This document shows positions 34,825 through 50,740 of a stretch of 64,000 nucleotides of DNA, one piece after another. Under the pieces are notes generated by a model. That model was given only the letters and a program-made list of their open reading frames with translations, made no database searches and was not told where the DNA came from. The position numbers were made by a program, and so were the translations under genes. How positions within the stretch are numbered: the stretch's first letter is position 1; every line of letters starts with the position of its first letter. The DNA comes from Nanobdellota archaeon (GTDB lineage: Archaea; Nanobdellota; Nanobdellia; Pacearchaeales; GW2011-AR1): NCBI GenBank assembly GCA_018830525.1, contig JAHJSH010000029.1, positions 105,697 to 169,696 of the forward strand. The letters run 5' to 3'.

Positions 34825-35312
34825 TTTTCGTTTAACCGAATAACTATTATCTTTATTCATAGTAGGACTTTTTAGATATCTGAAATTATGGTGACAGCGA
34901 TGCTGATTTTATATTTTTTTGGAGTTTTATTCTATGATTTTTGAAGATTTGGGGTTCTCACTTACCTCTGACTGTTTTTTGTTAGATATTTTTATTGGTA
35001 TACTTGAGGTCTCACATTTCTTGGAAGGGGGTTGAATTTTTTATTTTTTCTAACTCTTCCACCGCGGGCGTACCCCTTCTTCGGAAGGGGCAACTTTTTC
35101 TGATCAAAAGTTCGAGTTTGCTAACTCTCACTTTTTCACTTGAAAATATGTGGGAATTAAAAAATTCAAATTTTAGAATTTTAGAAATAGAAAAGTGGCG
35201 ATTAAGCGTTTTAAGGTGCCAAGAATCGATTTTTTTGTTCAAAACGAGTAAGGAATCAGCTCAAATGCTTAAAATTCCTGGAAGGGGGCTTGAAATTTGC
35301 CGGAGAAATATT

Positions 35313-36269: not shown

Positions 36270-36497
36270 TTTTGATTAAAATTTCTGAAATTTTTAAGGA
36301 TTTATGTTGTCTAGGGCGTACCAAATTTCTGTCTCTGTGCCTGACGATTGTGCACTTTGGTTAACTTAGTGCATAATACACTTTATAAGTTATTTTGGTG
36401 GGAGGATTTTGTTAAAAATTTGACTGAAATTTGAGAAAAAAATAAGGTGCCCAAGGGTTGCTTGGACAGATAAAAAATTGATAAAAATTATTTGTTT

Positions 36498-36701
36498 TTA
36501 CTTCTTGAAAACTGCAAGGATTACGCTGATGATTGCACCGACTACTACGACCCAACCAGCAATTTGAACAATGATTCCACTGGCTATGTCACTTATCCCT
36601 GGGATCGTTAGAACTTTATTAATCATCCCAGACCCAACAGCTAGTGCTACGATCACACCGACGACCCACGCAAAGATTCCTACAATTGTATTATCTGCCA
36701 T
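36498..36701 (-). CDS. Small membrane protein (2 TM)
   Basis: Hydrophobic 67-aa ORF. Confidence 0.3.
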   Translation of the reverse strand: MADNTIVGIFAWVVGVIVALAVGSGMINKVLTIPGISDIASGIIVQIAGWVVVVGAIISVILAVFKK

Positions 36702-36711
36702 GTTTACCTCC

Positions 36712-37002
36712 TTATCTTTTTTTTCTCCGTGCCGTGAAATGGAAAAATACCATTGCCAACACGAATGAAATTATGATTGTAAGGAGGAAAGAATCGGTTA
36801 AAGTTGTTGTATACCCAAAGTATTCTGTGACCGAATTTAGGCTTGAAACTTTGTCTGGATTTAGACTACAAAGAGTCCATTTATATATCGGGGGATAGAG
36901 TGCTGCAGACTTCCGGCAAGGGACAATTGGAATGATTATTGAGGCTACCAAAACTGCCGCAGAAACTAACGCGGAGTATATCAACCTTCTTTTAAATATC
37001 AT
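36712..37002 (-). CDS. Small membrane protein
   Basis: Hydrophobic 96-aa ORF. Confidence 0.3.
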   Translation of the reverse strand: MIFKRRLIYSALVSAAVLVASIIIPIVPCRKSAALYPPIYKWTLCSLNPDKVSSLNSVTEYFGYTTTLTDSFLLTIIISFVLAMVFFHFTARRKKR

Positions 37003-37169
37003 ATTTTTGTTAAGATTTTGAAGTTTATAATTGTTTTGGAAGCAAAAATCTCATAAATTTAGGGGGTTGTTTGGACAGATTCAAACACTTAGGGGTGTTA
37101 AAACATTCTTTTTTGGTGTTTGGACAGCCGTTTAAGTGTTTTTTCACTCCACGAAGATAGTTTAAATAG

Positions 37170-37185
37170 TTTATCGACGATAAAA
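37170..37185. repeat. 16-bp inverted repeat TTTATCGACGATAAAA, left arm (partner at 38329-38344)
   Basis: Exact reverse complement of 38329-38344; the pair flanks a 1.16-kb segment. Confidence 0.8.
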
Positions 37186-37189
37186 GTTA

Positions 37190-37945
37190 GTGTTTATGAA
37201 TTGGACAGCCAAGTTATTTTGGTTGTTTTGGGGGTTATTTCAGTTAGTTTGGTGTTTGGGTGATTGTTTTTTGGTGTTTGTTGTCCAAACACCGCGAAAC
37301 ATTTATAAAGAAAGCTGTTTAGAAGTTAGTAAGATGTTTGGTTTATTTGGTCATAAAAAGAGAATCGAAAAGTTAAGAACTGAAGTCCAGGATTCTTTTA
37401 ATCATGTGAAGAAAGACTTTAATAAAGTTGGTGAATGGATTAAACATCTCGACGATAAACATTCATCTCATGAGGGGGAAATTTCTAGTATCAAAAATCA
37501 ACTTATGACTATCCATGAGGACCTTATGGAGCTAAAAGATTTCGTTTCTTTCTTTGGTCCACAGATTTCTAAGGGGCTGTCCAAACAAACACAAACGAGC
37601 GTGGTAAAACAACCATTGAGGGGGGCTGTCCAAACACTTGTCCAAACGGGTGTCCAAACAGACGTTTTAGAGAATTTAACAGTAATGGAACGGGCAATTG
37701 TGTGGGCATTATTAAACTCTGAGATGAGATTAAGTTATGAAGATCTTGCTGCCCTATTAGGTAAAGATAAGAGTACTATAAGGGGCCAAATTAACGCGAT
37801 TAAACAGAAGAGTGAAGGTTTAATTGAAGAGTCTAGAGAGGTAAATGGTAAGAAAAGGCTCTATATTCCTGATGAAATCCGTACAATGGTGGTCAAAGGC
37901 GTAAAAGTGAAAATAAAGGGATCAAATAAAGGTCAAAAAGAGTGA
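37190..37945 (+). CDS. Coiled-coil + C-terminal winged-helix DNA-binding protein (paralog of 38471-39106)
   Basis: N-terminal hydrophobic segment, coiled coil, VQT low-complexity linker, then a wHTH (LTVMERAIVWALL...STIRGQINAIKQK). Confidence 0.5.
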   Translation: MFMNWTAKLFWLFWGLFQLVWCLGDCFLVFVVQTPRNIYKESCLEVSKMFGLFGHKKRIEKLRTEVQDSFNHVKKDFNKVGEWIKHLDDKHSSHEGEISSIKNQLMTIHEDLMELKDFVSFFGPQISKGLSKQTQTSVVKQPLRGAVQTLVQTGVQTDVLENLTVMERAIVWALLNSEMRLSYEDLAALLGKDKSTIRGQINAIKQKSEGLIEESREVNGKKRLYIPDEIRTMVVKGVKVKIKGSNKGQKE

Positions 37946-38247
37946 AAACGTGAAAAGTGAGAGTTAGGGAGGTAAATTTGGCTTAAAAATTGGTAGTTTT
38001 TTAAGTAAACGAAGTGAAAAAGTGAGGTCTTTTTGGCATATATCCTATTCACTGGAAAAGTGAGATGCGGAGGATATCTGGCTTTAAGTGAAAAGGTGAG
38101 GTTTGGAAGATAAATGAGCCAAATTTTGCGAAAAAATGACATGCCCAAATAGGAAAGATTTGGGGTTATGGGGAGAGAGTTAAGAGTTAATTTTTAGTTT
38201 GGATGTTCGCGACATACTTGAAATGTTCAGGGCAAAAGTGAGGAATT
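37942..38247 (+). repeat. Iteron array: six direct copies of (GTG)AAAAGTGAG
   Basis: Copies at 37942, 37950, 38014, 38055, 38088 and 38234. An inverted copy CTCACTTTTTCAC lies at 35126-35138. Confidence 0.75.
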
Positions 38248-38328
38248 AACTAATCGTTTAACCGAATAACTATAGTTTTAACTGGATTCATGGCAAAAAG
38301 TTTGCTTATAAATCTAGTAGAAATAATA

Positions 38329-38344
38329 TTTTATCGTCGATAAA
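38329..38344. repeat. 16-bp inverted repeat, right arm
   Basis: TTTTATCGTCGATAAA is the reverse complement of 37170-37185. Confidence 0.8.
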
Positions 38345-38470
38345 TTAATAGTTTTTGGAGTAGGAGAGTTTGTGTATAAAATGGCCAAAAGTTGGTTATT
38401 TTAGTCTTATAATTCCCTTAACTTGAAAATTGTGTCTAAAGTAACGTTTAAAGTAAACGTTTCATGAATC

Positions 38471-39106
<636 letters not shown>

Positions 39107-39225: not shown

Positions 39226-39495
39226 TTATTGATGCTTTTTATAAATTTCGTATGCTTTGTTGGAGATTCTCCACCTTAATCTTCGTGAATATTGAAACCC
39301 TTGAGAATTTTTATCAATTTTTTTCACTAATTCTTTTTTTTCTAAATCTTTTAGCAAATCTTTCATGAATTCTTCGTCTCTTGCGAGCTCTTTTGCGATG
39401 TCAGAAGTGAAAACTTGTTTTGGGAATACAGAATATAAGTAGGAAAGTATTTGTTCGGCGATCTTCTCTTTTTTTTGGTCTGAAATTTTGGGCAT
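39226..39495 (-). CDS. Small winged-helix-like DNA-binding protein
   Basis: 89 aa, basic and helix-rich. Upstream sits TTTATAAAACCGAATAACT, a partial inverted copy of the 34828 and 38254 repeat. Confidence 0.4.
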   Translation of the reverse strand: MPKISDQKKEKIAEQILSYLYSVFPKQVFTSDIAKELARDEEFMKDLLKDLEKKELVKKIDKNSQGFQYSRRLRWRISNKAYEIYKKHQ

Positions 39496-41141: not shown

Positions 41142-41188
41142 CCCGAATCGAACGGGGATGCCCCGAAGGGCCGCGGGTTCGAGCCGCC
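41142..41188 (-). repeat. Partial copy (anticodon arm to T-arm, 47 nt) of the adjacent tRNA-Ser; att-site-like
   Basis: 45 of 47 nt are identical to tRNA-Ser positions about 27-72, and the copy diverges at the acceptor. Confidence 0.8.
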
Positions 41189-41216
41189 ACTCTCAAAATT
41201 TGCGTTTCGTTAAAGA

Positions 41217-41297
41217 CGCCTGTACCCCGAATCGAACGGGGATGCCCCGAAGGGCCGCGGGTTCGAGCCGCGTGCGATACCATTACGCGATACAGGC
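41217..41297 (-). tRNA. tRNA-Ser(CGA)
   Basis: Minus strand: GCCUGUA acceptor, CGCGG-CUCGAAC-CCGCG anticodon arm, long variable arm GCCCUUCGGGGCAU, T-arm CCCCG-UUCGAUU-CGGGG and discriminator G. Confidence 0.8.
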
Positions 41298-41395
41298 ACA
41301 TGCTTAAAGCGAATTTTTTGGCAATACCAATTATGCGATACGAGCAACTTATTTAGTTATATTAATAGAAAAGAGATCTTATTAAAATTATGGAA

Positions 41396-42151: not shown

Positions 42152-42299
42152 GGGTTGATTAGATGTAAATTGTTTATAAATCTTTCTTTTGGATTTTTAT
42201 TGAATAATAGTAGTGAAGTAATTAGATTTTTAGAGAGATTTTTAAATATTGGGGTGGGAATTATAAGGATTGTGCGAACTTTATTATTTTTTATCTCCT

Positions 42300-42740
42300 G
42301 ACCCTATGGTTGCGTATGGAAAGATTTATAAAAGTTTTTAGGGATTTTTGAATTTTATTTTATAATTTTTATTTATAAATATTTATATTATATATTATAT
42401 ATATTATATTATATACTATTAGTATATCTATATTTCAATTTAGTATATTTTAGTATAACTGTATTTCAATTTAGTATATTTTAGTATAACCTTTTTTAGA
42501 AAAGTGGGGGTGGTGATAAAAATATTTAATATTATTTTTTATTTCCTTTGGAGGGGAAATAAGGGGGTCAGAGGATATTGCTCTTAAATTGATCTATCGA
42601 GGGGGGGTTTTTGTTTTTTTGTGATGATTTTTGTTTTTTTGGATGTTATTACTTCTAGATGAAATGGTGGTGGTGAGGGTATGATTTCCAGTATATGAAA
42701 GTTTAAATAGTTCAAAGTTTGGGGTTATTTATGGGTGTAA
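42300..42740. other. Putative chromosomal replication origin (oriC) upstream of orc1/cdc6
   Basis: A very AT-rich (ATATT)n tract, a 29-bp tandem direct repeat x2 (42431-42459, 42462-42490), a palindromic ORB-like ATTTCCTTTGGAGGGGAAAT + G-string (42541-42570), and AGTGGKGGTGGTGA x2. Gene order oriC-cdc6-polD follows, as in Euryarchaeota. Confidence 0.55.
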
Positions 42741-42743
42741 AAA

Positions 42744-43958
42744 ATGGGTGTTGAATTAGGAGATATTTTTAATTCGGCGGTAAATAATAGTTTATTTAAG
42801 AATAAGGGGGTTTTACAGGCCCGTTATACTCCAGAGTCAATTCCTCATAGGGATGTTCAGATTAAATCTATCGCAGGAATTTTGGCTTCAACATTGAGGG
42901 GAGAGCGCCCGAGTAATCTTTTTGTCTATGGGAAAACCGGAACGGGAAAGACACTTTCGGTTTTGTATGTTCGAGATGAGTTGATAAAAAAGGCGGAGGA
43001 ACTAAATGTTGATGTTCGGTTTGAATATCTTAATTGCAAATTGAAGAAGGTTGCGGACACAGAATATAGGATTTTGGCTGCATTGATTGGTCAGTTGGGT
43101 GGGTCGGTTCCTTCCACGGGTCTTCCGACGGACCAGGTTTGGTCTAAGTTTATCGAGTTGGTGGATAGCAAGAAACAATTGATTGTTTTTATTTTGGATG
43201 AGGTTGATCAAGCGGTGAAGAAGATGAGTGATAATTTTCTTTATTCCTTGACGAGGCTTAATGCTGAATTGAGCCAGGCGCAGATTTCTATTATTGGGAT
43301 TTCTAATGATGTAACTTTTTTAGAGAATATAGATCCTCGTGTTCGTTCGAGTCTTGGTGAGGAGGAGTTTGTTTTTCCACCTTATAATGCTCCTCAATTG
43401 ATTGATATTCTTAAGGGGCGTTGTGAGGGGGCTTTTAAAGTGAGCGTTATTGAAGAGGGGGTTGTTGAAAAGTGCGCGGCTTATGCGGCCCGGGAACATG
43501 GTGACGCGCGTCGTGCTTTAGATTTATTGAGGATTGCAGGAGAATTAAGTGAGCGTGAGGGTGAAGAGCATGTGGGGGAAAAATATATTGATTTAGCGAA
43601 TAGAAAGATGGAGAGGGACAAGATTTTGGATATTGTGGAGGCTGAGCCGAAGCAGTTTCAATTGGTCTTGTATTCTATCCTGCGTTTGACCCGGCAGGCA
43701 AAAGAAGGAGGGCTTGAGAGGTTTTATACGGGGGATGTCTATAATTATTATCGTTCGGTTTGCGAACAAACGAAGACGGACGCTCTAACACAGAGGAGGA
43801 TTTCAGATATTATCGCAGAGATTGATATGTTGGGGTTGATTAATGCGAAGGTCATTTCTAAAGGACGACATGGTCGTACTAGAGAGATTAAACTTTCGGT
43901 TCCTTCGAATTTGTTTGATAAGGTCGAAGATATTTTGAATGAGAGTTTGGGTTTGTAG
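42744..43958 (+). CDS. cdc6: Orc1/Cdc6 replication initiator
   Basis: Walker A GKTGTGKT, AAA+ body and a C-terminal winged helix. Confidence 0.9.
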   Translation: MGVELGDIFNSAVNNSLFKNKGVLQARYTPESIPHRDVQIKSIAGILASTLRGERPSNLFVYGKTGTGKTLSVLYVRDELIKKAEELNVDVRFEYLNCKLKKVADTEYRILAALIGQLGGSVPSTGLPTDQVWSKFIELVDSKKQLIVFILDEVDQAVKKMSDNFLYSLTRLNAELSQAQISIIGISNDVTFLENIDPRVRSSLGEEEFVFPPYNAPQLIDILKGRCEGAFKVSVIEEGVVEKCAAYAAREHGDARRALDLLRIAGELSEREGEEHVGEKYIDLANRKMERDKILDIVEAEPKQFQLVLYSILRLTRQAKEGGLERFYTGDVYNYYRSVCEQTKTDALTQRRISDIIAEIDMLGLINAKVISKGRHGRTREIKLSVPSNLFDKVEDILNESLGL

Positions 43959-44190: not shown

Positions 44191-45855
44191 ATGTTTTCAT
44201 CCAACCGGAGGTTTTTCATGGCGGATAATATTTTGCGCGACTGTATGAAAAAAGGATTTCTTTTAGACAAGGAGATGTTGGGGTTACTTTCTGATTTGAC
44301 AGAGGAGGGTGTGGCAAATGTTATTGGGGTCCTTGGTAATTTGGGGATTGAGGAGAGGGTGATTAATAAGAGATTGTTTGAAAAACATTTTGATAAATTT
44401 AGGGGCCTGTTGATTGCTGAGCAAGGTCAGGACGAAATTCATAATTTTTTCGAAGGGTTGGGTTATAAGAAGGAGGAGGAGATTATAGGGGGGGCGGTTG
44501 AAGAAGATGAGGGGGTGTGTGGGAAGGTTAAATTGATTTCTGCGCCGGCGTTTCCACAGAAGAAAATTGAAGTGGGAGATTTTGTTAAACATTTTCGCTC
44601 CCGTTATGAGTCAATTAAATCGATGTTGGAAAACAGAGATTTTGAGAATTTGACTTCGATTCGGAAAATTGGGCAAGATAGGGGTAGCTATACTATTATT
44701 GCTGCGGTTTTTGGGAAAAGGATTACGAAGAATAAGAATTTGTTTTTGGAAGTTGAAGATTTAACTGGAAATTCTATTGTTTTGATTAACCAGAATAAGA
44801 AGGAGGTTTTTGAGAAGGCGAAAGATTTGTTGAACGATGATATTGTCGCGTTTAATGTTTCTGGAACTTCGGAGATGTTGTTTGCTAATGATGTGATTTT
44901 TCCAGAAGCAAGTTTGTCCGAGAAGAGATATAGTGATTTTGATGAGTATGTTGCATTCGCGGGGGATTTTCATGCAGGTTCGACTATGTTTTTGGAGAAG
45001 AATCTTTTGAAGTTTATTAAGTGGTTGAATGGGGCAGAGGGAGATGAGAAGCAGAGGGCACTCGCGAAAAAGGTTAAATATCTTTTATTGACAGGAGATA
45101 ATATTGATGGAGTTGGTCATTATCCTGGGCAGGAGAAGTACCTGACTCATCTGACTTCTCGAGGCCAATATGATAAAGTCGAAGAGATTATTAAATTGAT
45201 TCGAAAAGATATTAAGATTATTATGTGCCCCGGGCAGCACGACGCGGTTTGGGTTGGGGAACCTCAACCAATAATCGGCGAGAGGTTTGCCGAAGGATTG
45301 CATCACATTGATAATCTGACTTTAGTTCCTAATCCTGCATTGATTGAAATTGATGGAGGATTTCGGATTTTGATGTATCATGGGGCGAGTATAAATAGAT
45401 TTATTGATGAGATCCCAGATATTCGAACTAAGTTTGGGCATACTTCTCCTACAAGGGTTGTGCGGGAGATGTTGAAGAGAAGGCATCTCGCCCCGATTCA
45501 TGGGGGTATGGATTATATTCCTTGTGAACGTGGAGACCCGATGGTGATTGATAAGATCCCGGACATTATTGCTACGGCGGACCAGCATCGTGCGGAAGTC
45601 TCAACATATAATAATATTTTGATGATTGCAAGTTCATGCTGGCAATCAATGACCCCGTTTGAGGAAAAAGTTGGAAATGTTCCCGATCCTTGTAAGGTTC
45701 CCCTGTTTAATTTGAAAACTAGGGAGATTAAGATGCTTGATTTTTCTGATGAGTTGAAAGAGATTGAATGTGCTCCAGGAGGGCATGACCCTACTGGCTC
45801 TGAAGACGGTGAGGAGTTAGTTTGTAAATTGGAGGGAAAAGATGGTAGCTCATAA
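44191..45855 (+). CDS. polB: DNA polymerase II (PolD) small subunit DP1
   Basis: OB and calcineurin-like phosphoesterase motifs (GDFHAGS, GNHD-like), next to DP2. The true start may be the Met at 44218. Confidence 0.85.
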   Translation: MFSSNRRFFMADNILRDCMKKGFLLDKEMLGLLSDLTEEGVANVIGVLGNLGIEERVINKRLFEKHFDKFRGLLIAEQGQDEIHNFFEGLGYKKEEEIIGGAVEEDEGVCGKVKLISAPAFPQKKIEVGDFVKHFRSRYESIKSMLENRDFENLTSIRKIGQDRGSYTIIAAVFGKRITKNKNLFLEVEDLTGNSIVLINQNKKEVFEKAKDLLNDDIVAFNVSGTSEMLFANDVIFPEASLSEKRYSDFDEYVAFAGDFHAGSTMFLEKNLLKFIKWLNGAEGDEKQRALAKKVKYLLLTGDNIDGVGHYPGQEKYLTHLTSRGQYDKVEEIIKLIRKDIKIIMCPGQHDAVWVGEPQPIIGERFAEGLHHIDNLTLVPNPALIEIDGGFRILMYHGASINRFIDEIPDIRTKFGHTSPTRVVREMLKRRHLAPIHGGMDYIPCERGDPMVIDKIPDIIATADQHRAEVSTYNNILMIASSCWQSMTPFEEKVGNVPDPCKVPLFNLKTREIKMLDFSDELKEIECAPGGHDPTGSEDGEELVCKLEGKDGSS

Positions 45856-48800
45856 AAAAGAAAAGTATGATTGGGATACGGAGAAATATTTTACTGATTT
45901 GAAGACAGGGGTCGATAAAGAATATGTGGTTGCTAATGCTGCTAGGGCGAAGGGAATTGATCCTACAGACCATGTGGAGATTCCTTTAGCGATGACTATG
46001 GCAGAGAAGTCTGTGGGGTTGGTTACGACAATTTATCCTGATATCCCTATTAAGGAGATTAGTGATAGGATGTTAGAGTTGGAGGAAAAGTATGGGCAGT
46101 TGGATACGACGGTTGCGTTTGATATTGCTCGAGAGATTGCCGAGGAAAAGTATTGTAAGTTTAAGGATCAATTGGAAGCGATTGATTGCGGGATTCGTGT
46201 GGGGTTTGCTTATATCACCCTAGGAGTTGTTGCGTCCCCGATTGAAGGTTATACTGGTTTGCAATTAGGTAAGACTCGGGATGGGAAAGATTATTTCATT
46301 GCGAATTTTAGTGGGCCAATTCGTTCTGCCGGTACGACAGCGACTTGTGTTGTTCTGATGCTAATTGATTATCTGCGAGAACATTTCGGGTATGCGAAAT
46401 ACGACCCTGATGATACTGAGGTGAAGAGGTATGTTACTGAGAATATAGATTATCATGAGAGGGTTACGAATTTACAGTATTTCCCGACAGAGGAAGAGAT
46501 GATTTTTTTGGCTAAACATTTGCCGATTCAGATTTCTGGGGATCCTACGGAGAAGAGAGAGGTTTCGAATTATAAGGATTTGCCGAGGGTTTCTTCTAAT
46601 TTTATCCGGGGGGGGATGTGTTTGACTTTTAGTGAGGGTCTTGCGCAAAAGGCGGCGAAGGGAGTGATGCGGTTGAGTAGTCCGAAGAAGCATGGTTTGA
46701 TTTGTACGGGTTTTGATTGGTTGGAGGAATATTTAGTGCTTCACAAAAAGCGGGAGAAAGGGAGTGGAGATGTTATTGCAACATATATCAAAGATTTGGT
46801 TGCCGGGCGTCCGGTTTACGGGCATCCTTCTGCTCCGGGGGGATTTAGATTCAGGTATGGTCGGAGTCGGGCCGCGGGTTTCTCTGCAGTTTCTATTCAT
46901 CCAGCGACTATGGGAATTACAAATGGATTTTTGTCTCAGGGTACTCAGTTGAAAATTGAGAAACCTACTAAAGGGTGCATTATCACTTCCTGTGATCATC
47001 TTGATGGACCGATTGTTAAGTTGTTTGATGGTTCGGTCAAAAAGATTAGTGATTTTGAAGAATCGAAGGAGATTTACAAAGATGTCGAGGAGATTATTTA
47101 TTTGGGAGATATTCTTTTTCCGTTAGGAGATGTTATTGACCGGAATGCGATGTTGCCTAAGCCGGGTTATGTCGAGGAATGGTGGGAATTGGAGCTCAAG
47201 GAAAAGATGGAAGTGACTGGGGAGAGTTTTGAAGGTAATGCTTTTGATATTTCACTTGAAGAGGCTGTGGGGATTAGTGAGAAATATTCTTTGCCGTTAC
47301 ATCCCTCTCATATTTTTTATTGGAATCAAATTTCTAAGGAGGATTTTATAGGGTTAATGGATTGGGTGCAGAAAGGTATTTGGCGAGGGCGATTGGTTTT
47401 GCCTTGGGAAAGTTCTATTCGTGGAAAATTTAAAGAAGCAAAGAGGGCCTTAGAAATTTTAGGGGTGGAGCATCAAGTTGTTTTAGATAATGTTGTTGTA
47501 GCTAAAGATGCTAAATCTTTTCTTGTAAATTTGGGATTGCCGTTTATGAAAGAAGGAGATAATTTGAAGGGAGAGGTTAAGAAAATTATTGAAGGAGAGC
47601 TTGGTAGTGATGTCTTGGAGATTGTGAATAAATTTTCAAAATATAAAATCAAAGATAAGGCCGGAACTTTTATTGGGACTCGAATGGGTCGGCCAGAAAA
47701 GGCGAAGCTTCGGAAATTGACAGGAGGCCCAAGTGTATTGTTCCCGATTTCAGATCAAGGGGGGAGATTAAGGAGTGTGCAGGCTGCGGTCGAGGTAGGA
47801 TATATTAAATCTGACTGGCCGATTTTCAAATGTGGTTGTGGGACTGAAACGATTTATCCCGTCTGCGAAAAATGTGGGGAGAAAACTAAGCAGATGTATT
47901 ATTGTAGAGATTGTCGTGTGGCAAAAGAAGAGAAGTGTAAACAGCACGAAGATAATTGTTATAAGTTTTCTAATCGAAAAATTGATTCTAAACATTATTT
48001 TAAAGTTGCACAGGAATTGCTGGGCTATGAGAATTGGGAGATTCCTCCATTGATTAAAGGTGTTAGGGGAACAAGTAGTGATAGTCATGATTTTGAGAAT
48101 TTGGCGAAGGGAATTCTTCGATCGAAGTATAATCTTTGTGTGAATAAAGATGGGACGATTCGTTATGATGGGACTGAGATTCCGTTGACACATTTTAAGC
48201 CGCATGAGATTCGGACGAGTATTGAGAAGTTGAGAGAGTTGGGTTATGAGAAAGATCTGTATGGAGATGATTTGGTTAATGAAAATCAGATTTTGGAATT
48301 GAGGCCGCATGATGTTGTTTTGTCTTCGTGCTCGGTTACGGCGGATGAAAAGGCTGATGATGTTTTTCTTAATATTGCAAATTTTGTTGATGAAGAGTTA
48401 GAAAAATTATATGGTTTGCCAAAATATTATAATTTGAAATCGAAGGAAGATTTGGTTGGGCAGTTGGTTACTTGTATGGCTCCTCATAATTGTGCGGGGG
48501 TTATCGGGCGGATAATCGGGTTTAGTGAATTACAGGGGTTGGTTGCTTCACCTTATATGCATGCCGCTATGCGTCGAGACTGTTTTGATTATAATACATA
48601 TATCTCTATAAAACAAGGCAATGTTTGGAGAAATATTAAAATTGGCGAATTAATTGAAAAATTAAATCCAGAGAAGATTGTTGATGATTATAGGACTATG
48701 GAAAAAAAAGTTAAGGGATTTAAAACAATTGGATTTAATAAGGGATTAAAGGAGGTTGGAGTTAATAATTTTACAAAACATAAAAGATTACAGATGTTAG

Positions 48801-50740
48801 AGATTAAGACTGCTCTTGGGAAGAAGATTAAAGTTACTAAAAATCATAAATTTTTTATTGATGGAAAAAAGAAAAGGGCTTCTAATTTGAAAGTTGGAGA
48901 TAAATTACCTCTTCCTAAAAAGATTGATATTAAATCTAGAAATTTAGGGGAGATTAATTTATTAGAAAAATTTAAAGGAGAGAATTTAATGATTAGGGGA
49001 ATTAAGATTATTTTAGAAGATTTAGGGATTGGAGAGCGAGATAGAATTTTGAAAAGATTAAATATTTCTAAAAAACAATTTCAAAATTTCAAAATTAGGG
49101 ATAGTTATCCTATTAATTTTGTATTAAAATTGAATAAAAATTTGAGAGAAAAAATCTATAAGGTTGGAAAAATAGCGACTAAAAGAGATAATGTTGAAGT
49201 GCCAATTGTTATCGAGTTAACTAATGAACTTTTGGAAGTAATTGGATTATATCTTGCTGAGGGTTATTCGAGAAGTGTTAGTGGGGGAAAAGGATTGAAT
49301 CAAGTTTATATTTCTTCAAGTGATTCTGAAATTAGAAAATTTATTAAAAATACTATAAAAGATTCTTTTGGATTATATCCATCTGAAAGAAAAAAAGATA
49401 GGGTTACTTTTTCTTCAAGGAGTTTGTATTTATTTTTTACAAAGATTTTGGAGGCGGGGAGTATTGCTAAAGATAAAAGAATTCCTTATTTATTTTTGAA
49501 TTTAACTTTAGAAAAATTAGCTTGTGTTTTAAGGGGGTATTTTGAAGGAGATGGTTCTGCTGAAAAAGAAAGAAAAAAGATTTGTTGTGATAGTATTAGC
49601 GAAGGATTATTAAGTGATTTGGAATTTTGTTTGAATAGGTTTGGTATTTTTACTAAACGATATGAATATGAGAAAGAGCCCGGACCAAAAGTTAAGGAAT
49701 TTTATATCAAAAAGAAAAGAGTAATCCCTAAATTTAAAATTACTAAATTAATTATTGGTTCTGACTTTATTAATAATTTTATGAAGATTGGTTTTTTATC
49801 TAAAAGAAAAAATGATATTTTAAAAAATTATTTTGCTAAAGGGCATTATGGGATGAGGATCGAACAAGATGAAAATTTTGTTTATGATTCTATTGTTTCT
49901 ATTGAGGAATCCGGGGAAGAAGAAAGTTATTGTTTAAATGTAGATACCGAGAACCATCTTGTCGTTGCGAATAATATTATGAGTTTTAATTGCGATGGTG
50001 ATGAAGCAGCAGTAATGTTGCTTATGGACGTTCTGATTAATTTTTCTAGGAAGTTCTTACCGAGTCATCGTGGTGGGACTCAAGATGCTCCATTAGTTTT
50101 GAACGCTCATATTCGTGCAGGAGAAGTTGACGATCAGATTTTGGGTTTCGAGTTGGGAGACCACTATCCTTTAGAAGTTTATCGGTTAGCGGAGGAGGGA
50201 AAACATTCGAGTGAGTGTAAGATTGAGACTGTTAAGGATAGGTTGGCGAATGATGAAAATCCGTTTACTAAGACCGGGTTTACTCATGATTCTACTGATT
50301 TTAATGAAGGTGTTTTGAATGGGGCTTATAAGATTTTGCCGACGATGAAAGAGAAGGTTGCGGGGCAAATGGAATTGGTTGGGAAGATTCGTGCGGTCGA
50401 TACGGAAGATGTTGCTCGGTTAATTATTGAACGGCATTTTATTCGAGATATTCGAGGTAATCTCCGGAAGTTCGCACAGCAGCAGTTTAGATGTGTGAAA
50501 TGTAATGAGAAATTTAGAAGGACTCCGTTGTCTGGGGTTTGCACAAAATGTGGTGGGAAGATTATTTTTACTATTAGTGAAGGTTCAATTAAAAAATATC
50601 TAGAACCTGCGATGGATTTGGCCGTTAATTATAATATTTCTCCTTATACTAAAGAGGGAATGGAACTGACGAAGATGTATATCGAAAGTATTTTTGGGAA
50701 AGAATTGGATAAACAGGTTGACTTGAAAAAATGGTTCTAG
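45842..50740 (+). CDS. polC: DNA polymerase II (PolD) large subunit DP2, intein-containing
   Basis: The catalytic motif HAAMRRD | intein | CDGDEAAVMLLMDVLINFS reconstitutes the conserved HAAKRRNCDGDED. Zn-finger CxxC clusters are present. Confidence 0.9.
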   Translation: MVAHKKEKYDWDTEKYFTDLKTGVDKEYVVANAARAKGIDPTDHVEIPLAMTMAEKSVGLVTTIYPDIPIKEISDRMLELEEKYGQLDTTVAFDIAREIAEEKYCKFKDQLEAIDCGIRVGFAYITLGVVASPIEGYTGLQLGKTRDGKDYFIANFSGPIRSAGTTATCVVLMLIDYLREHFGYAKYDPDDTEVKRYVTENIDYHERVTNLQYFPTEEEMIFLAKHLPIQISGDPTEKREVSNYKDLPRVSSNFIRGGMCLTFSEGLAQKAAKGVMRLSSPKKHGLICTGFDWLEEYLVLHKKREKGSGDVIATYIKDLVAGRPVYGHPSAPGGFRFRYGRSRAAGFSAVSIHPATMGITNGFLSQGTQLKIEKPTKGCIITSCDHLDGPIVKLFDGSVKKISDFEESKEIYKDVEEIIYLGDILFPLGDVIDRNAMLPKPGYVEEWWELELKEKMEVTGESFEGNAFDISLEEAVGISEKYSLPLHPSHIFYWNQISKEDFIGLMDWVQKGIWRGRLVLPWESSIRGKFKEAKRALEILGVEHQVVLDNVVVAKDAKSFLVNLGLPFMKEGDNLKGEVKKIIEGELGSDVLEIVNKFSKYKIKDKAGTFIGTRMGRPEKAKLRKLTGGPSVLFPISDQGGRLRSVQAAVEVGYIKSDWPIFKCGCGTETIYPVCEKCGEKTKQMYYCRDCRVAKEEKCKQHEDNCYKFSNRKIDSKHYFKVAQELLGYENWEIPPLIKGVRGTSSDSHDFENLAKGILRSKYNLCVNKDGTIRYDGTEIPLTHFKPHEIRTSIEKLRELGYEKDLYGDDLVNENQILELRPHDVVLSSCSVTADEKADDVFLNIANFVDEELEKLYGLPKYYNLKSKEDLVGQLVTCMAPHNCAGVIGRIIGFSELQGLVASPYMHAAMRRDCFDYNTYISIKQGNVWRNIKIGELIEKLNPEKIVDDYRTMEKKVKGFKTIGFNKGLKEVGVNNFTKHKRLQMLEIKTALGKKIKVTKNHKFFIDGKKKRASNLKVGDKLPLPKKIDIKSRNLGEINLLEKFKGENLMIRGIKIILEDLGIGERDRILKRLNISKKQFQNFKIRDSYPINFVLKLNKNLREKIYKVGKIATKRDNVEVPIVIELTNELLEVIGLYLAEGYSRSVSGGKGLNQVYISSSDSEIRKFIKNTIKDSFGLYPSERKKDRVTFSSRSLYLFFTKILEAGSIAKDKRIPYLFLNLTLEKLACVLRGYFEGDGSAEKERKKICCDSISEGLLSDLEFCLNRFGIFTKRYEYEKEPGPKVKEFYIKKKRVIPKFKITKLIIGSDFINNFMKIGFLSKRKNDILKNYFAKGHYGMRIEQDENFVYDSIVSIEESGEEESYCLNVDTENHLVVANNIMSFNCDGDEAAVMLLMDVLINFSRKFLPSHRGGTQDAPLVLNAHIRAGEVDDQILGFELGDHYPLEVYRLAEEGKHSSECKIETVKDRLANDENPFTKTGFTHDSTDFNEGVLNGAYKILPTMKEKVAGQMELVGKIRAVDTEDVARLIIERHFIRDIRGNLRKFAQQQFRCVKCNEKFRRTPLSGVCTKCGGKIIFTISEGSIKKYLEPAMDLAVNYNISPYTKEGMELTKMYIESIFGKELDKQVDLKKWF
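48581..49990 (+). mobile_element. Intein with LAGLIDADG homing endonuclease in PolD DP2 catalytic site
   Basis: 470 aa, starts CFDYNTYISI and ends ...NIMSFN before Cys+1. LAGLIDADG blocks are IGLYLAEGYS and LRGYFEGDGS. Confidence 0.8.

What the first reader, a model, noticed from the sequence alone, without database searches (positions are those of the whole stretch)
36461..37660. Dense array of TGTTTGGACA/TGTCCAAACA iterons that extends into the coding sequence of a wHTH protein
At least ten copies of a 10-bp motif occur within 1.2 kb in both orientations. Three tandem copies (37628-37660) and one more (37578) lie inside ORF 37190-37945, where they encode the (A/L/G)VQT low-complexity linker. 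This clustering is far beyond chance and looks like an origin or partition iteron set, or an autoregulatory operator array. Protein-coding DNA doubling as binding sites is unusual.
Basis: seen in the sequence. Interest (0 to 1): 0.65.

Follow-up and report, generated by a model that had tools for sequence, protein, structure and literature searches.

The report
Binding-site array inside regulator's own gene
A small DNA-binding protein conserved in DPANN archaea (Pacearchaeota/Woesearchaeota) has a 10-bp protein-binding-type DNA word repeated around its promoter and inside its own coding sequence, where the word is read in different frames as the protein's floppy linker, so the linker's "conserved" amino acids are really dictated by DNA sites.

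Summary
The motif cluster is real. TGTTTGGACA/TGTCCAAACA has 6 exact copies in the 64-kb window, all within 37068-37660 (0.09 expected), plus 2 one-mismatch copies. That makes 8-9 copies, not the ≥10 claimed. The gene really starts at ATG 37334 (203 aa). It encodes a coiled-coil, a disordered linker and a winged helix (wHTH). In 31 related genomes the word sits at the same places: -265, -216 and -51 (just upstream of an invariant BRE/TATA), then +245, +294, +306 and +318. It is almost absent elsewhere. Synonymous codons in the linker are forced to spell the word (Val GTC 71% vs 7%; Ser TCC 97% vs 4%). The word is read in two frames here and in all three frames and both orientations in distant relatives. 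It is a quasi-palindrome, TGT-YY-RR-ACA. A sister clade with a different recognition helix encodes a different word (GTTCATGAAC/GTTCGAAC) in its linker. The best reading is a conserved operator array for the encoded wHTH protein, bracketing a leaderless promoter and acting in autoregulation, possibly by looping or roadblock. It is not the replication origin: a canonical oriC (ORB-like box, 6%-GC unwinding region) lies 5 kb away upstream of orc1/cdc6 and has no copies of the word. An origin-proximal centromere-like role cannot be excluded. This is a new variant of known kinds such as λ ori-in-O and lac O2.

The parts
36448..36468 (-). Terminator-like hairpin (TGTCCAAG-CAACC-CTTGGGCA followed by a T-run) downstream of the divergent 67-aa gene. 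One arm is the 1-mismatch motif copy at 36459-36468. In other species the stem is exactly GTCCAAAC-N3-GTTTGGAC.
   Evidence: A G·U wobble is allowed only in the minus-strand RNA, here and in L004.
36498..37002 (-). Divergent operon of two small membrane proteins (67 aa, 36498-36701; 96 aa, 36712-37002). It is syntenic in 25-28 of 31 loci. Its TATA-like box (about 37026-33) lies about 40 bp from motif copy 37068.
37068..37077 (+). Upstream motif copy A1 (TGTTTGGACA), at -265 from the ATG.
   Evidence: A far-upstream copy (zone -330..-180, which also covers the next copy) is present in 26 of 31 loci.
37117..37126 (+). Upstream motif copy A2 (TGTTTGGACAGCC), at -216. It lies 49 bp from A1. Other species show spacings of 50 or 60 bp.
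   Evidence: (I18).
37170..37184 (.). Second conserved element B, the palindrome TTTATCGACGATAAA at -161. It is followed by a split A-like word, TGTTTATGAATTGGACAG (37193-37210).
37282..37291 (-). Promoter-proximal motif copy A3 (TGTCCAAACA on the + strand), at -51. It ends about 5 bp upstream of the BRE. In other species the same position holds GTTTGGAC, GTTTAAAC or GTTCAAAC, which shows the quasi-palindrome TGT-YY-RR-ACA.
   Evidence: 21 of 31 loci.
37295..37309 (+). BRE-like CGAAACA followed by TATA box TTTATAAA (37302-37309). The TATA position, -32..-25 from the ATG, is identical in 28 of the 30 loci checked (one is shifted by 1 bp and one did not match the search pattern), so the mRNA is leaderless.
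37334..37945 (+). Gene for the 203-aa protein. It has an N-terminal helical hairpin/coiled coil (residues 4-82), a disordered linker (80-108), a winged helix-turn-helix (117-186) and a basic tail.
37448..37459 (+). Element B copy inside the ORF (CTCGACGATAAA, encoding L-D-D-K of the invariant HLDDKH). Its codons are forced: Leu is CTC in 21 of 22 cases and Asp is GAC in 27 of 27.
   Evidence: (D14).
37578..37587 (-). Intragenic motif copy (TGTCCAAACA on the + strand), at +245. It is read in frame 2 as (L)SKQ.
   Evidence: Ser is TCC in 30 of 31 cases.
37627..37660 (-). Three tandem intragenic copies with a 12-bp period (37627, 37639, 37651; +294, +306, +318). They are read in frame 1 as AVQT-LVQT-GVQT.
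37682..37891 (+). Coding region of the wHTH DNA-binding domain. The recognition helix is KSTIRGQINAIKQK.

Best explanation
The array is a set of protein-binding sites (operators) with the quasi-palindromic core TGT-YY-RR-ACA. It belongs to a lineage-specific regulator gene of Pacearchaeota/Woesearchaeota-type DPANN archaea.

The most likely binder is the gene's own product. This protein is probably a coiled-coil dimer or oligomer with two wHTH heads on about 30-residue flexible tethers (oligomeric state inferred from the helical-hairpin model, not tested).

Sites lie in four places: far upstream (-265, -216, shared with a divergent membrane-protein operon), directly upstream of BRE/TATA (-51), and in the linker-coding part of the gene (+245 to +327). 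The far-upstream copies are in the opposite orientation to the coding copies, so they bracket the leaderless promoter and the 5' half of the gene.

Occupancy of these sites would feed back on transcription. This could work through TFB/TBP contact at -51, and through cooperative bridging or looping between the upstream and intragenic sites, or through an elongation roadblock at the intragenic sites.

Because the sites sit in a structurally indifferent linker, they can be read in any frame. The DNA word therefore dictates the 'conserved' VQT/SKQ/CPN/VWT peptides.

Shown: the array exists, it is position-conserved, it is under DNA-level selection, the word is quasi-palindromic, the protein has a wHTH fold, and helix type co-varies with the word at clade level. 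Inferred: who binds, the sign of regulation, and looping.
For: Enrichment and locus specificity:
- 6 exact copies against 0.09 expected.
- In 31 loci the degenerate word GTYYRRAC is confined to -330..-40 and +200..+340. All 31 loci have the coding copies, 26 have far-upstream copies and 21 have the -51 copy. Outside these zones the rate is 0.19/kb.
- TGTYYRRACA has only 3 hits elsewhere in the 64-kb window.

DNA-level selection:
- In the VQT repeats Val is GTC in 68 of 96 cases, against 28 of 393 elsewhere in the same genes (p = 1e-37).
- Gln is CAA in 96 of 96 cases and Thr is ACA in 81 of 96.
- The base before the word is T in 86 of 96 cases.
- Ser in SKQ is TCC in 30 of 31 cases, against 18 of 417 elsewhere (p = 5e-33).

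Frames and orientations: two frames are used in the window. All three frames and both orientations are used in L034, and the perfect palindrome GTCCGGAC occurs in L035.

The -51 site shows F, R and palindromic variants at one fixed position next to an invariant BRE/TATA.

Protein: the linker has pLDDT below 50. The wHTH domain matches MarR, Lrs14/AbfR2 and ArsR folds.

Co-variation: GQ-type recognition helices go with VQT-type linkers (34 to 1). RRH-type helices go with MNV/ERS-type linkers encoding GTTCATGAAC/GTTCGAAC (11 of 11).

The upstream pair spacing of 50 or 60 bp keeps helical phase.
Against: - There are no binding or expression data.
- A 10-bp palindrome is short for two wHTH heads on one face of the DNA.
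- Two other wHTH genes lie next door and could be the binder: paralog 38471-39106 and the HTH_69 gene 39226-39495.
- Some lineages have the intragenic array but no upstream copies (L034). Some members with the same recognition helix lack the linker repeats (P0137). Promoter-centred autoregulation therefore cannot be the whole story.
- The helix/word co-variation rests on two clades only and is phylogenetically non-independent.
- The conserved position 5 kb from oriC would also fit a chromosome-organising role.
- A second element (TCGACGATAAA at -161, +114 and +998) implies another, unidentified factor.
Confidence: 0.55

Rival explanations
1. Origin-proximal centromere-like or chromosome-organising site. 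The coiled-coil/wHTH protein nucleates on the cluster at its own gene, 5 kb from oriC. It then tethers, condenses or segregates the origin region, in the way ParB/parS, RacA/ram or Noc do. Autoregulation would be only a side effect.
For: - The array is always in the same syntenic block as xerA, orc1/cdc6 and polD, about 5 kb from the oriC-like region.
- The protein architecture (coiled coil plus DNA-binding head plus basic tail) suits bridging.
- Three independent sub-threshold hits link the HTH to ParB/Noc: Pfam HTH_ParB E=0.0046, TIGR00180 E=0.008, PDB Noc E=0.23.
- The most universal feature of the family is the intragenic cluster, not the promoter site.
- Clustering sites at the binder's own gene is what parS in spo0J does (own knowledge).
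Against: - No ParA/SegA-like ATPase was found among the roughly 60 ORFs of the window.
- The fold is a winged HTH of MarR/Lrs14 type, not ParB.
- The sites are confined to about 600 bp, with one placed precisely against BRE/TATA, which is typical of a regulator.
- In the one subfamily-2 locus with gene calls on both sides (L032), the 3-kb flanks do not show orc1.
Confidence: 0.2
2. The sites are operators, but they are bound by a different protein. Candidates are the adjacent paralogous coiled-coil/wHTH protein, the small HTH_69 protein, or a heteromer of the paralogs. The focus gene would then be a regulated target rather than self-regulated.
For: - Three wHTH genes are syntenic in 25-31 loci.
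- The paralog's linker is also under DNA-level constraint: invariant GGGGTTCCAACAGAC, Asp is GAC in 39 of 39 cases, Thr is ACA in 107 of 114. It is built of related CA-rich words.
- In subfamily 2 the paralog's linker words change in parallel with those of the focus gene (MQTFMQT).
Against: - The word type tracks the focus protein's own recognition helix.
- The focus word is absent from the promoters of the paralog and of the HTH_69 gene in the window.
Confidence: 0.15
3. Replication origin: iterons for an initiator, as in λ ori inside gene O, or an ORB-type archaeal origin.
For: - The repeats lie inside and next to a gene for a DNA-binding protein.
- Inverted arrays bracket a central region, as ORBs bracket a DUE.
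- λ-type origins do lie in the middle of the initiator gene (PMC7466680).
Against: - There is no AT-rich unwinding element: minimum GC is 25% per 100 bp, against 6% at the orc1-adjacent region.
- A canonical oriC with a conserved ORB-like box and DUE lies directly upstream of orc1/cdc6 in the window and 12 related loci.
- No copy of the word occurs in 10.5 kb of those oriC regions.
- The protein has no ATPase or helicase-loader domain.
- The locus is chromosomal, and no viral homologues were found.
- Cumulative GC skew shows no turning point at 37 kb.
Confidence: 0.04
4. Invertible promoter switch. The 14-bp inverted repeats GTGTTTGGACAGCC and GGCTGTCCAAACAC (37116-37129 and 37624-37637) would be recombination sites for the nearby tyrosine recombinase. 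Recombination would flip the promoter and the 5' half of the gene.
For: - The repeats are perfect 14-nt inverted repeats 494 bp apart, flanking the promoter (I18).
- A XerA-like tyrosine recombinase gene lies 3 kb away in conserved synteny. It gives weak hits to tyrosine-type invertases.
Against: - The window and all 30 related loci in which the gene is not cut off by a contig end carry it in one continuous orientation, and no inverted configuration was seen.
- The recombinase scores as the chromosomal XerA (218 bits against a 220-bit cutoff).
- The number and spacing of the repeats fit binding arrays rather than a pair of core sites.
Confidence: 0.03
5. RNA-level element. The GUCCAAAC words act in the mRNA, through structure or as an RNA-binding-protein site, rather than in DNA.
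For: - The palindromic pair at about -880 (36448-36468 in the window) behaves like an RNA terminator hairpin, with G·U wobbles only on the transcribed strand.
- L034 has an adjacent R-F pair that could form an 8-bp hairpin in the mRNA.
Against: - The -265, -216 and -51 copies lie upstream of the TATA box, outside the transcript.
- The -51 copy changes orientation between species.
- In the main family all coding copies have the same polarity and cannot pair with one another.
Confidence: 0.03

Closest known systems
Lambdoid phage origin inside the initiator gene (oriλ iterons in the middle of gene O)
   Same: The binding sites for a DNA-binding protein are repeated inside that protein's own coding sequence, in the segment between its domains. 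Changing the number of sites changes the number of amino acids: two extra iterons add 13 residues to O (PMC7466680). The array here likewise varies in copy number, from 1 to 7 or more.
   Different: The present array has no AT-rich unwinding region and no initiator-type protein. It is chromosomal and lies 5 kb from a canonical oriC. Its sites are 10-bp quasi-palindromes rather than 19-bp iterons. They also flank a promoter, and they are read in several frames.
Auxiliary intragenic operators with repression loops in bacteria (lac O2 inside lacZ, gal OI inside galE). Cited from own knowledge.
   Same: Operators upstream and inside coding DNA bracket a promoter, and an oligomeric regulator is presumed to bridge them. 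Here the -265/-216 and +245/+294 pairs are inverted and each pair is 49 bp apart.
   Different: In those systems the intragenic operator lies in a target gene, not in the regulator's own ORF. They have single sites rather than tandem arrays that specify a peptide repeat. They are bacterial σ70 promoters, whereas this is an archaeal BRE/TATA leaderless promoter.
ParB/Spo0J-parS, with parS located inside spo0J, and the related Noc. Cited from own knowledge.
   Same: An origin-proximal palindromic site lies within the gene of the protein that binds it. There are weak sub-threshold HTH similarities to ParB/Noc.
   Different: There is no ParB N-terminal CTPase domain and no ParA partner in the window. 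The fold is a winged helix. The sites are 10 bp and number about 8 in 600 bp, instead of a 16-bp parS.
Small archaeal wHTH regulators and nucleoid proteins (Lrs14/AbfR, Sta1, MarR-type ST1710)
   Same: The wHTH fold matches (Foldseek hits AbfR2 6cmv, ST1889 and ST1710). There are weak NCBIfam hits to Sta1 and Lrs14. A site just upstream of BRE/TATA is where archaeal activators such as Sta1 and Ptr2 bind (own knowledge). The Lrs14 family combines regulator and nucleoid-protein roles (PMC11841832).
   Different: All sequence matches are below family cutoffs. The N-terminal coiled coil plus long disordered linker architecture is not that of these families, and neither are the intragenic operator arrays.

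Membership tests
Archaeal oriC (ORB/Orc1-Cdc6 origin) | An AT-rich duplex unwinding element between the repeats | tested here: not met
   The minimum GC of any 100-bp window in 36270-38470 is 25%. The orc1-upstream regions have windows of 2-10% GC.
Archaeal oriC (ORB/Orc1-Cdc6 origin) | ORB-type dyad repeats, directly adjacent to orc1/cdc6 | tested here: not met
   orc1/cdc6 is at 42744-43958. The conserved ORB-like box GTGTGACCCTATGGTTTCTTATGGAAAG lies upstream of it in 12 of 13 loci. GTYYRRAC has 0 copies in 10.5 kb of these regions.
Iteron origin inside an initiator gene (λ O/oriλ type) | Repeated binding sites inside the gene of a DNA-binding protein | tested here: met
   There are 4 copies in the linker-coding region here, and 1-7 or more in relatives.
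Iteron origin inside an initiator gene (λ O/oriλ type) | An adjacent AT-rich region, an initiator-type protein, and an autonomous replicon | tested here: not met
   There is no AT-rich region. No Rep or initiator domain passes a cutoff. The locus is in conserved chromosomal synteny. The viral-contig scan found no relatives.
ParABS-type partition system | A ParB-family protein (ParB N-terminal domain plus HTH) | tested here: not met
   HTH_ParB scores 17.5 bits against a cutoff of 22.6. TIGR00180 scores 15.9 bits against 58.45. The structure is a winged helix of MarR/Lrs14 type.
ParABS-type partition system | A neighbouring ParA/SegA-type Walker ATPase | tested here: not met
   None was found among the Pfam-scanned ORFs of the 64-kb window. 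The rest of the genome was not available.
ParABS-type partition system | An origin-proximal cluster of palindromic sites | tested here: met
   The quasi-palindrome TGT-YY-RR-ACA cluster lies about 5 kb from the oriC-like region, in conserved synteny.
Autoregulated wHTH transcription factor with an operator array | A winged helix-turn-helix DNA-binding domain | tested here: met
   In the AF2 model residues 117-186 form H-H-H-β-β with pLDDT 80-91. Foldseek matches MarR, MepR, AbfR2 and ArsR at probability 1.0. Pfam HTH_29 is below cutoff.
Autoregulated wHTH transcription factor with an operator array | (Pseudo)palindromic sites at its own core promoter, conserved across species | tested here: met
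   The -51 site lies next to an invariant BRE/TATA in 21 of 31 loci and occurs as F, R and palindromic variants.
Autoregulated wHTH transcription factor with an operator array | The protein binds these sites and changes its own transcription | not testable with these tools
   There is only indirect support: recognition-helix type co-varies with the linker-encoded word (34:1 and 11:0).
MarR / Lrs14 / Sta1 families (sequence membership) | A score above the family's curated cutoff | tested here: not met
   No Pfam or NCBIfam model reaches its cutoff. Sta1 scores 18 bits against a cutoff of 80. The PDB profile search gives no significant hit.
Invertible promoter switch (fimS-like) | Both orientations of the IR-flanked segment occur in populations | tested here: not met
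   All 31 loci, and the protein clusters inspected, show a single orientation with an intact ORF. Read-level data were not available.

The most novel reading that the evidence does not exclude
In this DPANN family the regulator's gene is itself the regulator's main chromosomal docking site. An array of its own binding sites is written into the disordered linker in any reading frame, and it is kept about 5 kb from oriC. The protein-gene pair would then work as a self-contained, ParA-independent origin-region organiser or centromere (or a replication-coupled dosage sensor), not merely as an autoregulated transcription factor.
Probability: 0.15. Interest if true: 0.85.

Novelty: new variant of a known kind. 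Interest (0 to 1): 0.62.

Why it matters
This is a clear natural case of overlapping codes. The peptide repeats VQT, SKQ, CPN and VWT in a disordered linker are invariant across more than 2,000 homologues. They are explained by selection on a DNA word read in different frames, not by protein function. That is a warning for anyone who interprets conserved low-complexity linkers as protein features. DPANN archaea are mostly uncultivated and have almost no characterised regulators. For them, this finding supplies a predicted site-factor pair (TGT-YY-RR-ACA and a 203-aa coiled-coil wHTH protein). It also supplies a precisely mapped leaderless promoter and a likely oriC, all directly testable in vitro. 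If the array also acts in origin-region organisation, it would point to a new archaeal chromosome-handling system.

Tried and rejected
- Metagenome-wide scan for the palindromic pair GTCCAAAC-N3-GTTTGGAC. The scan gave no information on a regulon.
- Rfam search of 35.8-42.8 kb. Only tRNA-Ser was found, so no known RNA family explains the repeats.
- Viral-contig search for relatives. None were found, which argues against a mobile-replicon origin or partition module.
- Literature searches for the motif, for DPANN wHTH regulators and for Pacearchaeota origins. Nothing relevant turned up.
- NCBIfam, Pfam and PDB sequence searches. Only sub-threshold generic HTH hits were found.
- Search for a wider regulon in the window. 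TGTYYRRACA has 3 hits outside the array against about 1.4 expected for the whole window by chance, two of them inside ORFs.
There is no turning point at 37 kb. The only shift in background skew is at about 13-18 kb and is unexplained.
- Invertible-switch idea: rejected because orientation is uniform in all loci.
- The long GTG-start ORF (37190): rejected because of upstream in-frame stops in orthologues.
- Subfamily-2 loci were checked for upstream copies of their own word. Only degenerate single candidates next to TATA were found (L033 GTTCGGTC, L032 TTCCAAAC). The 'upstream plus intragenic' layout is therefore firmly shown only for the main clade.
Full report
**1. The observation**

TGTTTGGACA has six exact copies in the 64-kb window. 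All lie between 37068 and 37660. Chance expectation is 0.09, and none of 100 dinucleotide shuffles reached six.

With one mismatch, two more copies fall in the region: 36459 and 37639. A 7-mer core, TTGGACA, lies at 37201. That gives 8-9 copies, not 'at least ten'.

At ≤2 mismatches the density is 8.5/kb in 36400-37700 and 1.2/kb elsewhere.

Orientation is ordered. The + strand copies (TGTTTGGACAG) are at 36459, 37068 and 37117. The reverse-complement copies (TGTCCAAACA on the + strand) are at 37282, 37578, 37627, 37639 and 37651.

The last three are tandem with a 12-bp period and encode A-VQT, L-VQT and G-VQT. The copy at 37578 is read in another frame, as L-S-K-Q.

**2. The gene**

The GTG-start ORF at 37190 is too long. 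More than 2,300 homologues from Nanoarchaeota, Pacearchaeota and Woesearchaeota MAGs (70-92% identity among the listed homologues that differ from the window's protein) align from MFGLFGHKK, which is the ATG at 37334.

In 29 of 30 orthologous loci an in-frame stop lies upstream of that ATG.

TTTATAAA sits at -32..-25 in 28 of the 30 loci; one is shifted by 1 bp and one did not match the search pattern. It is preceded by a BRE-like CGAAAC. The mRNA is therefore leaderless, and the 37282 copy is a promoter element (-51). It ends about 5 bp upstream of the BRE.

The AlphaFold2 model shows four parts:
- a helical hairpin or coiled coil, residues 4-82;
- a disordered segment, residues 80-108, with pLDDT below 50;
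- a winged helix-turn-helix, residues 117-186, with pLDDT 80-91;
- a basic tail.

Foldseek matches the C-terminal domain to MarR/MepR, Lrs14-type AbfR2, ST1889 and ArsR/SmtB folds.

No Pfam, NCBIfam or PDB sequence model reaches its cutoff. The weak hits are HTH_29, HTH_ParB, Sta1 and Noc.

All four intragenic motif copies fall in the disordered linker.

**3. Comparative evidence**

Thirty-one related loci were fetched (47-83% protein identity). The 8-mer GTCCAAAC/GTTTGGAC recurs at the same offsets from the ATG:
- about -265 and about -216, in reverse orientation;
- -51;
- +245, +294, +306 and +318, in forward orientation.

With the degenerate word GTYYRRAC:
- all 31 loci have coding copies;
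- 26 have far-upstream copies;
- 21 have the -51 copy;
- the rest of the roughly 8.5-kb loci carries 0.19 hits/kb.

The -51 position holds GTCCAAAC in 10 sequences (the window and 9 loci) and GTTTGGAC in 7 loci. GTTTAAAC or GTTCAAAC occupy it in others, always at the same coordinate. A distant member carries GTCCGGAC. The word is thus a quasi-palindrome, TGT-YY-RR-ACA, as expected for a symmetric protein-binding site.

Where exactly two copies fall in the far-upstream zone, the commonest spacings are 48-51 bp (5 loci) and 60 bp (3 loci), which differ by about one helical turn. The coding pair +245/+294 is 49 bp apart.

The far-upstream and coding copies have opposite polarity and bracket the promoter.

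**4. Selection acts on the DNA**

The table compares codon use within the 32 genes analysed (31 loci plus the window).

| Position | Codon | In the repeat | Elsewhere in the same genes | p |
|---|---|---|---|---|
| Val of VQT | GTC | 68/96 | 28/393 | 1e-37 |
| Gln of VQT | CAA | 96/96 | 167/242 | 4e-13 |
| Thr of VQT | ACA | 81/96 | 97/224 | 5e-12 |
| Base before the word | T | 86/96 | not compared | not tested |
| Ser of SKQ | TCC | 30/31 | 18/417 | 5e-33 |

A column-by-column scan flags only these positions and residues 39-40.

Distant representatives carry the word in all three frames and both orientations:
- VQT = GTC CAA ACn;
- SKQ or SKH = TCC AAA CAn;
- CPN = TGT CCA AAC;
- VWT = GTT TGG ACn.

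L034 has 7 forward copies and 1 reverse copy within 45 codons.

Thirty-nine of 86 full-length representatives of 50%-identity clusters have at least two such tripeptides. The 'invariant' linker residues of alignment A1 are therefore a by-product of a DNA word placed where the protein tolerates any sequence.

**5. Who binds?**

This cannot be shown computationally, but one indirect test was possible. A sister clade has a different recognition helix (…VTIRRHINDI… instead of …STIRGQINAIKQK…). It encodes different words in its linker: GTTCATGAAC, GTTCGAAC and CGTTCAA, with half-site GTTCA instead of GTCCA/GTTTG.

Across the 96 family representatives of at least 150 aa:
- GQ-type helices go with VQT-type linkers, 34 to 1;
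- RRH-type helices go with MNV/ERS-type linkers, 11 to 0.

This is a contrast between two clades, so it is suggestive only.

The adjacent paralog (38471-39106) has the same architecture, and its linker is also DNA-constrained. It has an invariant GGGGTTCCAACAGAC, Asp is GAC in 39 of 39 cases, and it contains (ACAG)n or (ACAAACAG)n runs. It and the HTH_69 gene remain alternative binders.

**6. Not the replication origin**

The window carries orc1/cdc6 (42744-43958), followed by PolD DP1 and an intein-containing DP2.

The 580 bp upstream of orc1 contains a stretch of about 160 bp (42340-42500) whose lowest-GC 100-bp window is 6% GC. It also contains G-rich elements and an ORB-like box, CCTGACCCTATGGTTGCGTATGGAAAG.

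Both the 2-10% GC window and the box (GTGTGACCCTATGGTTTCTTATGGAAAG) are conserved in 12-13 loci. GTYYRRAC occurs zero times in 10.5 kb of these regions.

The array region never drops below 25% GC, and cumulative GC skew shows no turning point there.

No relatives of the protein were found on viral contigs. The neighbourhood is conserved chromosomal synteny: xerA-like recombinase, Zn-ribbon, HNH-like gene, two small membrane proteins, focus gene, paralog, HTH_69 gene, then orc1.

**7. Partition or chromosome organisation**

The array is origin-proximal. The protein's coiled coil, flexible tethers and basic tail would suit bridging. Three sub-threshold hits point to ParB/Noc HTHs.

Against this, no ParA/SegA ATPase is in the window and the fold is not ParB-like. 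One site also abuts BRE/TATA exactly.

I keep this as the main rival, at about 0.2.

**8. Other rivals**

Invertible switch. Perfect 14-nt inverted repeats (37116-37129 and 37624-37637) flank the promoter, and a tyrosine recombinase gene is nearby. However, all 31 loci have one orientation, and the recombinase scores as XerA.

RNA element. The upstream copies lie outside the transcript, and the -51 copy flips orientation between species. This excludes an RNA role for the array as a whole.

The outlying copy at 36459 is different. It is one arm of a terminator-like hairpin on the minus strand (36448-36468) behind the divergent membrane-protein operon. Its G·U wobbles fit only the transcribed strand. 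In four to eight other species the stem is exactly GTCCAAAC-N3-GTTTGGAC. Why a terminator stem uses the operator word is unexplained.

**9. Mechanism proposed**

Shown:
- a position-conserved, DNA-selected, quasi-palindromic site array brackets a leaderless BRE/TATA promoter and extends into the linker-coding DNA of a coiled-coil wHTH protein;
- the far-upstream copies also lie about 40 bp from the TATA-like box of the divergent membrane-protein operon.

Inferred:
- the protein's wHTH heads, on about 30-residue flexible tethers, bind these sites in any orientation and at spacings of 12, 49 or about 500 bp;
- binding at -51 touches the TFB/TBP platform, which is a position typical of archaeal activators (own knowledge);
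- oligomer bridging of the upstream and intragenic sites, or an elongation roadblock, gives feedback control of the gene and co-control of the divergent operon.

Confidence that this is a selected protein-binding array is about 0.85. Confidence that the gene product is the binder and that the role is autoregulatory is about 0.55.

**10. Comparison and novelty**

There are several precedents for sites inside coding DNA:
- oriλ iterons in the middle of gene O, where extra iterons add residues to O (PMC7466680);
- lac O2 and gal OI (own knowledge);
- parS inside spo0J (own knowledge).

What is new here:
- the family, which is uncharacterised, DPANN-specific and passes no curated model;
- the archaeal promoter context;
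- the family-wide use of a disordered linker as a carrier for the protein's presumed own operators, in three frames and two orientations;
- a parallel word change in a sister clade.

I rate it a new variant of a known kind, with interest of about 0.6.

Noticed in passing
window 37941-38245; also 35011-35136 (minus strand); L032 3597-4040: An array of AAGTGAG(AGTT) words starts at or beside the stop codon of the focus gene and repeats every 50-90 bp downstream (37952, 38017, 38055, 38090, 38233). It is conserved in all 31 loci and in a distant subfamily-2 locus (8 copies). The same word lies on the minus strand downstream of the HNH-like gene. No Rfam match was found, and its function is unknown.
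   Followed up: partly
window 37170-37184, 37448-37459, 38330-38344: A second conserved DNA element, TTTATCGaCGATAAA (a palindrome), sits at -161, inside the ORF at +114 and downstream at +998. The intragenic copy encodes L-D-D-K of the invariant HLDDKH. Its codons are forced: Leu is CTC in 21 of 22 cases against 14 of 540 elsewhere, and Asp is GAC in 27 of 27. This implies a second, unidentified DNA-binding factor.
   Followed up: partly
window 38830-38990 (gene 38471-39106, minus strand): The paralogous coiled-coil/wHTH gene has a tetranucleotide run, (ACAG)~9 on its coding strand, which encodes TDRQ×3. In other species the run is (ACAAACAG)n or (ACAA)n. It always follows an invariant GGGGTTCCAACAGAC, and its GAC and ACA codons are forced. 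It looks like a slippage-prone linker under DNA-level constraint.
   Followed up: partly
window 42160-42743: This is the likely chromosomal oriC. It has a stretch of about 160 bp (42340-42500) whose lowest-GC 100-bp window is 6% GC and which contains TATAT-type and 31-nt repeats. It also has G-string elements and an ORB-like box at 42297-42323, conserved in 12 of 13 related loci. It lies directly upstream of orc1/cdc6, polD DP1 and DP2.
   Followed up: partly
window 36343-36375: A hairpin-like non-coding element (consensus GTGCACTAAGGTTAGCTTAGTGAAAAG) lies beyond the membrane-protein operon and is recognisable in most of the 26 related loci displayed.
   Followed up: no
window 38405-38443 and 38469-38507: A 39-nt direct repeat (92% identical) duplicates the 3' end of the paralog gene just downstream of its stop codon.
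   Followed up: no
window 41150-41187 and 41234-41271: A 38-nt perfect direct repeat of an internal part of tRNA-Ser(CGA) (gene 41215-41298, minus strand) lies next to the gene. It could be a tRNA fragment or the scar of an integration event.
   Followed up: no
window 1-64000 (shift near 13-18 kb): The background GC skew of the + strand rises from about +0.06 to about +0.25. Minus-strand genes beyond 13 kb still show positive + strand skew. There is no turning point at the array or at the oriC-like region.
   Followed up: partly
window 19782-22175 and 45842-50740: Inteins with LAGLIDADG domains interrupt an ABC-transporter ATPase and the PolD large subunit DP2.
   Followed up: no
P0180, P0185 (family representatives): In some family members the linker and wHTH are fused to unrelated N-termini: a receiver-like domain in P0180 and a T2SSE-N-like segment in P0185. 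This is either domain shuffling at the repeat-bearing linker or chimeric assembly.
   Followed up: no
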